Origin: Escherichia coli
GTDB lineage: Bacteria; Pseudomonadota; Gammaproteobacteria; Enterobacterales; Enterobacteriaceae
Direction: 5' to 3' (one strand)
Length of the DNA stretch: 64,000 nucleotides
NCBI RefSeq assembly: GCF_041886205.1
Contig: NZ_CP169029.1
In this document: in pieces, positions 47,401-50,400 of the stretch
How the letters are laid out: each line of letters starts with the position of its first letter
Position numbering within the stretch: the stretch's first letter is position 1
Position numbers: made by a program

Positions 47401-50400
47401 TGCTGTGCAGACTGAATCGCAGTCAGCGCGATGGTGTAGACGATATCGTCAACCAGTGCGCCACGGGACAGGTCGTTAACCGGCTTGCGCATACCCTGCA
47501 GCATCGGCCCGATGGAGATCAGGTCGGCAGAACGCTGTACCGCTTTGTAGGTGGTGTTACCGGTGTTCAGATCCGGGAAGATGAACACGGTAGCGCGACC
47601 TGCAACCGGAGAGTTCGGCGCTTTGGATTTCGCAACGTCAGCCATTACTGCAGCGTCGTACTGCAGCGGACCGTCGATCATCAGGTCAGGACGTTTTTCC
47701 TGCGCCAGACGAGTTGCTTCGCGAACTTTTTCTACATCGCTACCTGCACCAGAAGTCCCGGTGGAGTAGGAGAGCATAGCAACGCGCGGTTCGATACCGA
47801 AGGCCGCAGCGGAATCAGCGGACTGAATCGCGATTTCTGCCAGCTGTTCTGCGGTCGGATCCGGGTTGATCGCACAGTCACCGTAAACGTAAACCTGTTC
47901 CGGCAGCAGCATGAAGAACACGGAAGATACCAGGGAGCTGCCCGGTGCAGTTTTGATCAGCTGCAGCGGCGGACGGATGGTGTTTGCGGTAGTGTGAACA
48001 GCACCGGAAACCAGACCATCAACTTCATCCTGTTCCAGCATCAGCGTACCGAGAACCACGTTGTCTTCCAGCTGCTCGCGGGCAACGGTTTCGGTCATGC
48101 CTTTGTTCTTACGCAGCTCGACCAGACGACCAACATAGCTTTCGCGAACCACTTCTGGATCAACGATTTCAATGCCTGCACCCAGTTCTACACCCTGAGA
48201 CGCTGCAACACGATTGATCTCTGCCGGATTACCCAGCAGTACGCAAGTTGCGATACCACGTTCAGCACAGATAGCGGCTGCTTTAACGGTACGCGGTTCG
48301 TCACCTTCCGGCAGAACGATACGTTTGCCCGCTTTGCGCGCAAGTTCAGTCAGCTGATAACGGAACGCTGGCGGAGACAGACGACGGCTGCGCTCAGAAG
48401 TGGCAGTCAGAGACTCGATCCAGTCAGCGTTGATGTAGTTAGCAACGTACTCCTGAACTTTCTCGATACGCTCGTGATCGTCAACCGGAACTTCCAGGTT
48501 GAAGCTCTGCAGGCTCAGAGAAGTCTGCCAGGTGTTGGTGTTCACCATAAATACCGGCAGGCCGGTAGCGAAAGCACGTTCGCACAGTTTAGAAATGCGC
48601 GCGTCCATTTCGTAGCCGCCAGTTAGCAGCAGGGCACCGATTTCTACGCCGTTCATGGCAGCCAGGCAAGCGGCAACCAGCACGTCAGGACGGTCTGCGG
48701 AAGTCACCAGCAGAGAACCGGCACGGAAGTGCTCCAGCATGTGCGGAATGCTGCGTGCGCAGAAAGTGACGGATTTAACGCGGCGAGTATTGATGTCGCC
48801 TTCGTTGATGATGGTCGCATTCAGGTGGCGAGCCATATCGACCGCACGAGTCGCGATCAGGTCAAAGCTCCACGGCACAGCACCGAGAACCGGCAGCGGG
48901 CTAGATTCTTGCAGCTTCGCCGGATCAACATTGTTTACTTTAGCTTTGGAAGAGTCGTCGAAAATCTCGGACAGATCCGGGCGAGTACGACCCTGTTCAT
49001 CAACCGGTGCGTTCAGTTTGTTAACGATAACGCCGGTGATGTTGGTGTTTTTGGCACCGCCGAAGCTGTTGCGGGTCAGTTCGATACGCTCTTTCAGCTG
49101 TTCCGGGGTGTCAGTGCCCTGAGACATAACGAAGACGATTTCCGCATTCAGCGTTTTAGCGATTTCGTAGTTCAGAGACTGGGCAAACTGGTGCTTACGT
49201 GTCGGGACCAGACCTTCAACCAGAACGACTTCAGCGTCTTTGGTGTTAGCGTGGTAGTTTGCGACGATCTCTTCCATCAGCACATCTTTCTGATTGCTGG
49301 AAAGCAGACCTTCAACGTAGCTCATTTTCAGCGGTTCAGCGGCCGTCGTGGTGGAAGAGTTCGCACGCACGATAGTCGTAGTCTGATCGGGCGCATCGCC
49401 ACCGGTACGCGGCTGAGCGATAGGTTTGAAAACGCTCAGACGAACGCCTTTGCGTTCCATTGCACGGATCACGCCAAGGCTGACGCTGGTCAGACCGACG
49501 CTGGTTCCGGTAGGGATCAGCATAATAATACGGGACACGGTTTATCCTCTTTCGTTACCGCCGATTTGGCGGGTTACAAAACAGCACCGCCAGCTGAGCT
49601 GGCGGTGTGAAATCAGGCAGTCAGGCGGCTCGCGTCTTGCGCGATAACCAGTTCTTCGTTGGTTGGGATAACCACCGCAGGACGGGTACCTTCTTTGTTG
49701 ATGAAACCAGATTTGCCGAAACGTGCAGCCAGGTTGCGTTCATGATCAACTTCAAAGCCCAGCACGCCCAGTTTGCCCAGAGACAGTTCACGAACCATCG
49801 CGGCATTTTCACCGATACCACCAGTGAATACAACAGCGTCCAGACGACCATCCATCAGCGCAGTGTAGGCACCGATGTATTTCGCCAGGCGGTGGCAGTA
49901 AACGTCCATTGCGCGCTTCGCGTCTTCTTTCGTCGCGTAGTTGTCTTCAACATAGCGGCAGTCGCTGGTCACTTCGGTCAGACCCAGCAGGCCAGACTCT
50001 TTGGTCAGCAGTTTGTTGATTGCGTCAACGCTCATGCCCAGGGTGTCGTGCAGGTGGAAGATGATCGCCGGATCGATATCACCAGAACGGGTACCCATGA
50101 CCAGACCTTCCAGCGGGGTCAGGCCCATAGAGGTGTCAACGCATTTACCGTTGCGGATAGCAGAAACGGAACCACCGTTGCCCAGGTGGCAGGTGATGAT
50201 GTTCAGTTCTTCTACCGGTTTGTTCAGCATTTTTGCCGCTTCCTGGGTTACATAGAAGTGGCTGGTGCCGTGCGCGCCGTAACGACGGATGCCGTGCTCT
50301 TTGTACAGGTTGTAAGGCAGGGCGTAGAGGTAAGACTCTTCCGGCATAGTCTGGTGGAACGCGGTGTCAAATACAGCAACGTTTTTGTCTTTCAGCTGTG

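What the first reader, a model, noticed from the sequence alone, without database searches (positions are those of the whole stretch)
49576..49598. Hairpin in the short ackA-pta spacer
A 10-bp perfect stem lies 15 nt after the ackA stop, with only a partial U-tract. It could act as a partial terminator or RNA stability element allowing differential ackA versus pta expression, while pta has its own strong terminator at 47322-47356.
Basis: partly seen in the sequence, partly recalled or inferred. Interest (0 to 1): 0.2.

Follow-up and report, generated by a model that had tools for sequence, protein, structure and literature searches.

The report
Leaky terminator hairpin between ackA and pta
The hairpin is real, though 9 bases from the stated coordinates, and it is an ordinary, already mapped, leaky transcription stop between two acetate-pathway genes of E. 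coli; its only unusual trait is how strictly its sequence is conserved.

Summary
The window is E. coli chromosome. On the minus strand, ackA is 49613-50815 and pta is 47394-49538, with a 74-nt spacer.

**Observation.** A perfect 10-bp stem (8 G-C pairs, 3-nt loop, about -19 kcal/mol) exists, followed by CUGUUUUGUA. It lies at 49585-49607, not 49576-49598. It starts 5 nt after the ackA stop, not 15.

**Published 3' ends.** A 3'-end mapping study (TRS, PMC10687069) lists a reproducible ackA 3' terminus at MG1655 2414705-6, which is window 49580-49579, inside the U run. Its stop score is 0.75-0.92, against 0.99-1.0 at the pta terminator.

**Conservation.** In 68 of 77 gammaproteobacterial ackA-pta spacers a GC-rich hairpin plus T-run sits at the same place, with many compensatory changes. 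Only 1-4% of control windows have one.

**Verdict.** It is a leaky Rho-independent terminator that also caps the ackA mRNA. It probably lets ackA RNA exceed pta RNA. These data cannot separate true termination from cleavage followed by trimming.

**One oddity.** All 20 stem bases are invariant across 21 Enterobacteriaceae, while the pta and yfbV terminator stems turn over in the same genera.

Novelty: already known kind, already mapped. Interest: low.

The parts
49613..49615 (-). ackA stop codon TGA (ackA CDS 49613-50815, 400 aa)
   Evidence: ORF list. 100% match to annotated ackA WP_000095707.1 in E. coli.
49585..49607 (-). Hairpin 1: 5' arm 49607-49598 CACCGCCAGC, loop 49597-49595 UCA, 3' arm 49594-49585 GCUGGCGGUG
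   Evidence: Sequence. Terminator-like scan: 10 pairs, 8 G-C, loop 3. Energy -18.9 kcal/mol. Pairing probability about 1. Covariation across 63 sequences. Stem invariant in 21 Enterobacteriaceae.
49575..49584 (-). Imperfect U-tract CUGUUUUGUA. Published RNA 3' ends fall at about 49580-49578, in the UUUU run.
   Evidence: TRS tables give MG1655 2414705/6; mapped through pta start 2414747 = window 49538. T-tail score nT 1.66, against 4.1-4.6 for the pta terminator. TGTTTT is invariant in Enterobacteriaceae.
49558..49572 (-). Hairpin 2: CCGCC-AAAUC-GGCGG, between the U-tract and the pta ribosome-binding site. It belongs only to the read-through RNA.
   Evidence: Folds. Present in Enterobacteriaceae with some compensatory changes, for example CCGTC/GACGG in L007 and L011 and GCGCC/GGCGC in L015. 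Absent in more distant Enterobacterales.
49536..49551 (-). pta Shine-Dalgarno AAGAGG (49551-49546) and GTG start (49538-49536)
   Evidence: Sequence. ORF 47394-49538. Annotated pta. A49548 and G49547 are predicted to pair with the U-tract in read-through RNA.
47322..47358 (-). Terminator at the end of the operon, after pta: stem 47358-47328 with a T-rich tail
   Evidence: Scan. TRS 3' end at MG1655 2416961-4, about window 47324-47321, R-bar 0.99-1.0. Score +12 to +21.

Best explanation
The hairpin is a leaky Rho-independent (intrinsic) terminator inside the ackA-pta operon.

As RNA polymerase leaves ackA, the nascent RNA folds into a very stable 10-bp GC-rich hairpin. An imperfect U-tract (CUGUUUU) follows. 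Some polymerases release there and produce an ackA-only mRNA ending in the U run. The 3' hairpin of that mRNA then shields it from 3'-to-5' exonucleases. The remaining polymerases read through the 46 nt to the pta start, and pta is translated from its own Shine-Dalgarno sequence.

The net effect would be more ackA RNA than pta RNA from the ackA promoter, and partial uncoupling of the two genes.

Shown: the structure, its conservation with compensatory changes, the conserved T-run, and a published in vivo 3' end in the U run.

Inferred: that the end arises by termination rather than processing, that termination is partial, and the effect on the AckA:Pta ratio.
For: - Anatomy: a 10-bp stem with 8 G-C pairs, -18.9 kcal/mol, and 5 T in the 8-nt tail. 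It passes the terminator-like scan.
- In vivo 3' end: the terminus lies in the U run, 5-6 nt past the stem, in three E. coli K-12 tables. All replicates have p below 1e-39. R-bar is 0.75-0.92, against 0.99-1.0 at the pta terminator.
- Positional conservation: 68 of 77 loci from six gammaproteobacterial orders have a hairpin of at least 8 bp and 5 G-C pairs right after the ackA stop. Only 1-4% of control windows do.
- Conserved T-run: the tail holds 4.9 T of 8 on average, against 28% T in the spacers overall. A conserved T-run is what a terminator needs and a mere exonuclease barrier does not.
- Covariation: there are 102 double-change cells against 30 in shuffles. The score is 0.436, against 0.176 in shuffles (0 of 500 reach it) and at most 0.152 when the partner is slid.
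- Weak tail predicts leakiness: the classical score is -7.4 (nT 1.66), against +12 to +21 for the pta terminator.
- Read-through: silencing ackA mRNA also lowers Pta activity by 48% (PMC1635301).
- Not a repeat or known RNA family: one copy per genome and no Rfam match.
Against: - 3'-end sequencing cannot tell termination from endonuclease cleavage followed by trimming back to the hairpin.
- The U-tract is poor (C at +1, G at +3), and the classical terminator score is below its threshold.
- Another E. coli Term-seq study lists no 3' end here. It also misses the pta terminator, so this is uninformative.
- pta is reported to have a promoter of its own (PMC5670510), so pta expression does not prove read-through.
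- I found no measurement of termination efficiency and no Northern blot showing an ackA-only band.
Confidence: 0.65

Rival explanations
1. The hairpin acts only as a processing and stability element. Polymerase always reads through. The bicistronic RNA is cut by RNase E in the single-stranded AU-rich stretch between the two hairpins, or within pta. 3' exonucleases then trim back and stall a few nucleotides from hairpin 1. This leaves a stabilised ackA RNA, with the pta segment decaying separately.
For: - The U-tract is imperfect and the terminator score is sub-threshold.
- UGUUUUGUAAC lies between two stable hairpins, a typical setting for RNase E cleavage (established knowledge).
- The mapped 3' end, 5-6 nt past the stem, also fits an exonuclease stall.
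- SdhX lowers AckA but not Pta (PMC6393394 and PMC9438474). This would fit two separable RNA segments.
Against: - The T-run directly after the stem is kept in lineages whose stems have entirely different sequences. A barrier alone does not require it.
- Many relatives carry a fully canonical tail at the same place. Examples are GCCGTTTTTTTT in Photobacterium, CAGTTTTTTTT in Vibrio and CCCTTTTTT in Haemophilus.
- This reading and the best explanation are not mutually exclusive.
Confidence: 0.2
2. The hairpin is a regulated or specifically recognised switch. It may be sensitive to the ribosome that terminates at the ackA stop only 5 nt upstream. Alternatively it may be bound by a hairpin-binding protein such as ProQ. 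Either way, the ackA:pta ratio, and hence acetyl-phosphate, would vary with conditions.
For: - All 20 stem nucleotides and TGTTTT are invariant across 21 Enterobacteriaceae while the loop varies from 3 to 6 nt.
- The stems of the pta terminator and of the synteny-matched yfbV terminator turn over in the same genera.
- The 5' arm begins 5-10 nt from the stop codon in Enterobacteriaceae. That is within reach of a terminating ribosome's footprint (inference from established ribosome footprint size).
- R-bar differs between data sets, from 0.75 to 0.92.
Against: - No alternative (antiterminator) pairing competes with the stem; its pairing probability is about 1.
- There is no Rfam family match.
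- Invariance can be explained by purifying selection on a finely tuned efficiency.
- R-bar differences may be technical.
- No binding data were available.
Confidence: 0.1
3. The palindrome works at the DNA level as an operator for a dimeric transcription factor, for example one controlling a pta promoter. Otherwise it is a chance palindrome without function.
For: It is a perfect 10-bp inverted repeat whose sequence is conserved within Enterobacterales. pta is reported to have its own promoter.
Against: - The spacing between the two arms varies (3, 4, 5 and 6 nt within Enterobacteriaceae, up to 7 elsewhere). That is incompatible with a fixed dimer geometry.
- Outside Enterobacterales the arm sequences change completely while pairing and the T-run are kept.
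- An RNA 3' end maps to the tail.
- No sigma-70-like promoter was found on this strand.
- Chance is excluded.
Confidence: 0.05

Closest known systems
Rho-independent (intrinsic) terminators of E. coli, for example the operon-end terminator after pta in this same window
   Same: A GC-rich stem-loop directly followed by a T/U-rich tail, just downstream of a stop codon, on the sense strand, with in vivo RNA 3' ends in the U run.
   Different: - The tail is interrupted (CUGUUUUGU): nT is 1.66, against 4.1-4.6.
- There is no upstream A-tract.
- It sits inside an operon, 46 nt before the next start codon.
- The stop signal is weaker: R-bar 0.75-0.92, against 0.99-1.0.
- The stem sequence is far more conserved than that of the pta and yfbV terminators.
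Intra-operon partial terminators (attenuators) that set unequal expression, such as rplL-rpoB and rpsU-dnaG in E. coli, and the partial terminators seen by end-mapping in many operons (from my own knowledge, not checked here)
   Same: A terminator-like hairpin between two co-transcribed genes, with the downstream gene depending at least partly on read-through.
   Different: No efficiency has been measured for ackA-pta. pta is also reported to have an additional promoter. I found no dedicated study of this site.
Intercistronic stabiliser hairpins, such as REP/BIME elements (for example malE-malF), that block 3' exonucleases (from my own knowledge)
   Same: A stable hairpin at the 3' end of the upstream cistron could protect ackA RNA and give a higher upstream:downstream RNA ratio.
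   Different: It is not a REP element: there is one copy per genome, the sequence is unrelated and a single hairpin is involved. It also has a conserved T-run, which REP stabilisers lack.

Membership tests
Rho-independent (intrinsic) terminator | Stable GC-rich stem-loop in the nascent RNA | tested here: met
   10 bp, 8 G-C pairs, loop 3, -18.9 kcal/mol. Paired with probability about 1.
Rho-independent (intrinsic) terminator | U-rich tract of about 7-9 nt immediately 3' of the stem | tested here: inconclusive
   The tail CUGUUUUGUA has 5 T in 8 and passes the simple scan. C at +1 and G at +3 give nT 1.66 and a classical score of -7.4, below threshold; the pta terminator scores +12 to +21. The T-run is conserved across taxa.
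Rho-independent (intrinsic) terminator | In vivo RNA 3' ends within the U-tract | tested here: met
   Published TRS tables give 2414705/6, which is window 49580/49579, in three E. coli K-12 tables.
Rho-independent (intrinsic) terminator | Factor-independent release by purified RNA polymerase in vitro | not testable with these tools
   It needs in vitro transcription. No such data were found.
Intra-operon partial terminator (attenuator without a sensor) | The downstream gene is still transcribed from the upstream promoter by read-through | tested here: inconclusive
   Indirect only. Antisense decay of ackA mRNA lowers Pta activity by 48%. R-bar is below 1. A separate pta promoter is also reported.
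Intra-operon partial terminator (attenuator without a sensor) | A step down in RNA level across the site | not tested
   No coverage data for ackA against pta were accessible.
Regulated attenuator or riboswitch | A mutually exclusive antiterminator structure or a known sensor domain | tested here: not met
   No competing pairing: stem bases are unpaired with probability 0.01 or less in a 151-nt context. No Rfam match at E up to 1.
REP/BIME repeated extragenic palindrome | Member of a multi-copy repeat family | tested here: not met
   Exactly one place per genome in 5423 E. coli genomes.
Transcription-factor operator palindrome | Fixed spacing and conserved sequence of the half-sites | tested here: not met
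   Arm spacing varies from 3 to 7 nt, and arm sequences are replaced with pairing kept outside Enterobacterales.

The most novel reading that the evidence does not exclude
The hairpin is more than a generic leaky terminator. It would be a sequence-specific, tuned switch that sets the AckA:Pta ratio, and thus the acetyl-phosphate pool. It might be read by the ribosome terminating 5 nt upstream or by a hairpin-binding protein.

This would explain why all 20 stem bases are frozen across Enterobacteriaceae while neighbouring terminators drift. It would also help explain how ackA and pta can be regulated discoordinately, for example by SdhX.
Probability: 0.1. Interest if true: 0.5.

Novelty: already known. 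Interest (0 to 1): 0.15.

Why it matters
AckA and Pta together set the level of acetyl-phosphate, which is a global signal and protein-acetyl donor, and they drive overflow acetate production. A leaky stop between the two genes gives the cell a fixed excess of ackA RNA over pta RNA and partial independence of the two genes. This is relevant to the reported ackA-only regulation by the small RNA SdhX. It also matters for metabolic engineering, where ackA or pta is often deleted, tagged or silenced, because scars placed at this junction would remove or displace the element.

As a discovery it is minor. The kind of element is classical, and the 3' end is already in a published table.

Tried and rejected
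- **Known RNA family:** the Rfam search of 47200-51200 found nothing at E up to 1.
- **Repeat element (REP-like):** rejected, because there is a single copy per genome.
- **Promoter for pta in or after the hairpin:** there was no sigma-70-like match on the minus strand. That scan also misses the known ackA promoter, so it is weak evidence. My manual look for sigma-54 spacing also found nothing.
- **Stronger T-tails go with longer spacers (room for a separate pta promoter):** not supported. Spearman rho is -0.09, p = 0.45. Pasteurellaceae have canonical tails only 32-37 nt before pta. No promoter-like site was found on the sense strand in two long Vibrionaceae spacers.
- **A long-range partner for the arm sequence, for example in the ackA leader:** GCTGGCGG-type decamers are simply common in this genome (34 against 5.5 expected), and none lies in the ackA leader.
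- **Other literature:**
  - The curated Term-seq tables of Adams et al. list neither ackA nor pta ends, so they are uninformative.
  - Supplements are not held for Dar & Sorek 2018, Conway 2014 and the Rend-seq annotation paper.
  - The held SMRT-Cappable-seq supplements do not mention ackA or pta.
  - De Mets 2019 (PNAS) is not held. My guessed PMC ids for the SEnd-seq and Rend-seq papers matched nothing held.
  - Kakuda 1994 was not looked up.
- **A 12-bp bulged version of the stem that would bring UUUU flush to the stem:** RNAfold does not predict it on the isolated hairpin.

Full report
**Where we are.** The window matches E. coli chromosomes at 100% identity, and 5425 of 5426 complete genomes hold this stretch. 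On the minus strand, ackA is 49613-50815 (400 aa) and pta is 47394-49538 (714 aa, GTG start). They are separated by a 74-nt spacer, 49539-49612.

**The observation.** The minus strand reads TGA-UUUCA-CACCGCCAGC-UCA-GCUGGCGGUG-CUGUUUUGUAAC.
- The terminator-like scan reports a stem from 49607 to 49585 with 10 pairs, 8 of them G-C, a loop of 3, and the tail CTGTTTTGTA.
The interval 49576-49598 is displaced by 9 nt, and the stem starts 5 nt after the stop codon, not 15.
- The hairpin is not a chance feature:
  - The 96-nt region folds with z = -3.44.
  - The window has 7 distinct perfect hairpins of at least 10 bp. Scored with nested counts, that is 13 in the real window against about 0.7 in shuffles.
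  - The stem bases are unpaired with probability 0.01 or less in a 151-nt context.

- Its Supplementary Data 2 and 3 list an E. coli K-12 3' terminus on the plus strand at 2414705 or 2414706 (peak range 2414700-2414713).
- It is assigned to ackA as 'Alternative primary in TU'. All replicates have p below 1e-39.
- The upstream sequence shown is ...CACCGCCAGCUCAGCUGGCGGUGCUGUUUU, with a fold energy of -20.1.
- Using their pta coordinates (2414747-2416891), these positions map to window 49580-49579. That is inside the UUUU run, 5-6 nt past the stem. The printed sequence suggests a possible 1-nt offset, to 49578.
- Their statistic R-bar is 1 when nothing continues downstream. It is 0.75, 0.92 and 0.81 at this site, against 0.99-1.0 at the pta terminator. 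R-bar is a local read-start ratio, not a termination efficiency.
- A second Term-seq study lists no end for ackA. It also lists none for pta, so it says nothing either way.

**Comparative evidence.** I fetched 80 gammaproteobacterial ackA loci and extracted 77 ackA-pta spacers.
- In 68 of them, a hairpin of at least 8 bp and 5 G-C pairs lies within -10 to +70 of the ackA stop. Only 2% of windows inside ackA, 4% inside pta and 1% of shuffled windows have one.
- The 8 nt after the stem hold 4.9 T on average, while T is 28% of the spacers overall.
- The arm sequences are replaced between orders while the pairing is kept:

| Group | Hairpin and tail |
|---|---|
| Enterobacteriaceae | CACCGCCAGC/GCTGGCGGTG |
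| Yersinia, Serratia | CCGTCAGC/GCTGGCGG (a G-U step) |
| Pectobacterium | CCGTCAGC/GCTGACGG (completed compensation) |
| Aeromonas | GGCCGCC/GGCGGCC TTTT |
| Pasteurellaceae | CTGCCGA/TCGGCAG TTTCTTTTT |
| Photobacterium | CGGCTGGCC/GGCCGGCCG TTTTTT |

  Vibrio, Shewanella and Gilliamella have further versions.
- On a 63-sequence alignment the helix has 84% of cells paired and 102 double-change cells, against 30 in shuffles. The covariation score is 0.436, against 0.176 in shuffles (0 of 500 reach it) and at most 0.152 when the 3' partner is slid.
- Caveat: those sequences were chosen because they have a hairpin. The unbiased test is the 68 of 77 count.
- The conserved T-run is the feature that argues for termination rather than a mere exonuclease barrier.

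**How strong is it?** The stem is stronger than that of the pta terminator (-18.9 against -14 to -17 kcal/mol). The tail is poor, with C at +1 and G at +3.
- A classical hairpin-plus-tail score, computed with modern energies and therefore approximate, gives -7.4 (nT 1.66). The pta terminator scores +12 to +21 and the yfbV terminator +15.
- This fits a leaky stop.
- Read-through is supported indirectly. Antisense-triggered decay of ackA mRNA cuts AckA activity by 78% and Pta activity by 48% (PMC1635301).
- pta is also stated to have a promoter of its own (PMC5670510).
- SdhX represses AckA but not Pta (PMC6393394 and PMC9438474).

**What it is not.**
- It matches no Rfam family.
- It is not a repeat: there is one copy per genome.
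- It is not a riboswitch-like switch, because no competing structure is predicted.
- It is not a transcription-factor operator. The arm spacing varies from 3 to 7 nt, and the arm sequence is replaced outside Enterobacterales.
- On the plus strand the palindrome is followed by TGAAATCAGG, so it is not a terminator for antisense transcription.

**The one unusual point.** Across 21 Enterobacteriaceae sequences, all 20 stem positions and TGTTTT are invariant, although the loop differs in sequence and length from 3 to 6 nt.
- In the same genera the stem of the pta terminator is entirely different from genus to genus. That terminator may not be orthologous, because the gene downstream of pta was not checked and its synteny may change.
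- The stem of the yfbV terminator lies in the syntenic yfbV-yfbU spacer, and it also drifts.
- Within E. coli, 5141 of 5423 genomes are identical over 45 nt. The most divergent variant found changes one base before the stem and turns UUUUGU into UUUUUU, leaving the stem intact.
- The simplest reading is strong purifying selection on a tuned efficiency.
- A sequence-specific reader cannot be excluded and is my 'novel case'. Candidates are the ribosome terminating 5 nt upstream, or a hairpin-binding protein.

**The rest of the spacer.** A second small hairpin (49572-49558, CCGCC-AAAUC-GGCGG) precedes the pta Shine-Dalgarno sequence.
- It occurs in all Enterobacteriaceae examined, with a few compensatory changes.
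- In the read-through RNA, the U-tract (49584-49576) is predicted to pair with 49555-49547. That stretch includes two bases of the pta Shine-Dalgarno sequence.
- Both partners are invariant for their own reasons, so this cannot be tested by covariation.

**Verdict.** The kind of element, a leaky intrinsic terminator with a 3'-end cap inside an operon, is classical, and the 3' end is already published. Whether the end arises by termination (my estimate 0.65) or by processing alone (0.2) needs in vitro transcription or nuclease mutants. Interest is low.

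Noticed in passing
window 49558-49572 (-), with 49576-49584 and 49547-49555: A second hairpin (CCGCC-AAAUC-GGCGG) sits just before the pta Shine-Dalgarno sequence. 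It is kept in Enterobacteriaceae with some compensatory changes. In read-through RNA the terminator's U-tract is predicted to pair with ACGAAAGAG, which includes part of the pta Shine-Dalgarno sequence, clamping this hairpin.
   Followed up: partly
L019 about 3745-3776; also L023, L028, L029, L033, L034, L036, L039, L043 spacers: Yersinia, Brenneria, Pectobacterium, Photorhabdus, Xenorhabdus and Acerihabitans lack hairpin 2. They share a strongly conserved block, TTGACYAACGAGCAACCGT(A)AAAGAGG, directly before the pta start. Its function is unknown.
   Followed up: no
L022 (Yersinia thracica), L046 and L077 (Rosenbergiella): These are natural variants with a 41-42-nt ackA-pta spacer and no terminator-like hairpin. 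They could serve as comparison cases.
   Followed up: no
L020, L024, L030, L031 spacers (181-197 nt): Extra DNA of about 110-125 nt is inserted between the hairpin and the pta ribosome-binding site. Parts of it (for example GAGCTTACTCAAGTAAGTGA in Budvicia) resemble ERIC/IRU intergenic repeats. This resemblance is from memory and was not tested.
   Followed up: no
window 1630-1658, 23977-24002, 51630-51656, 55471-55497, 57893-57919: These are the other perfect hairpins of at least 10 bp in the window, besides the ackA and pta ones. The hairpin at 51630-51656 is the yfbV terminator, with a published 3' end at MG1655 2412625.
   Followed up: partly
window-wide; Chi sites at 13829, 27957, 30680 (+): Decamers within one mismatch of the hairpin arm GCTGGCGGTG occur 34 times, against 5.5 expected, and mostly on the plus strand. 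Three contain the Chi octamer GCTGGTGG.
   Followed up: no
window 47330-47356 (-): The top of the pta terminator stem differs from the MG1655 sequence printed in the TRS table (window ...AAATAGTGACTATTT..., MG1655 ...AAAUAAUCACUAUUU...). This is a within-species polymorphism at the loop end of the stem.
   Followed up: no
pta start codon, window 49536-49538 and all loci: pta starts with GTG in Enterobacterales, Aeromonas and Photobacterium. It starts with ATG in Vibrio, Pasteurellaceae, Gilliamella and Shewanella, and with TTG in Rosenbergiella.
   Followed up: no
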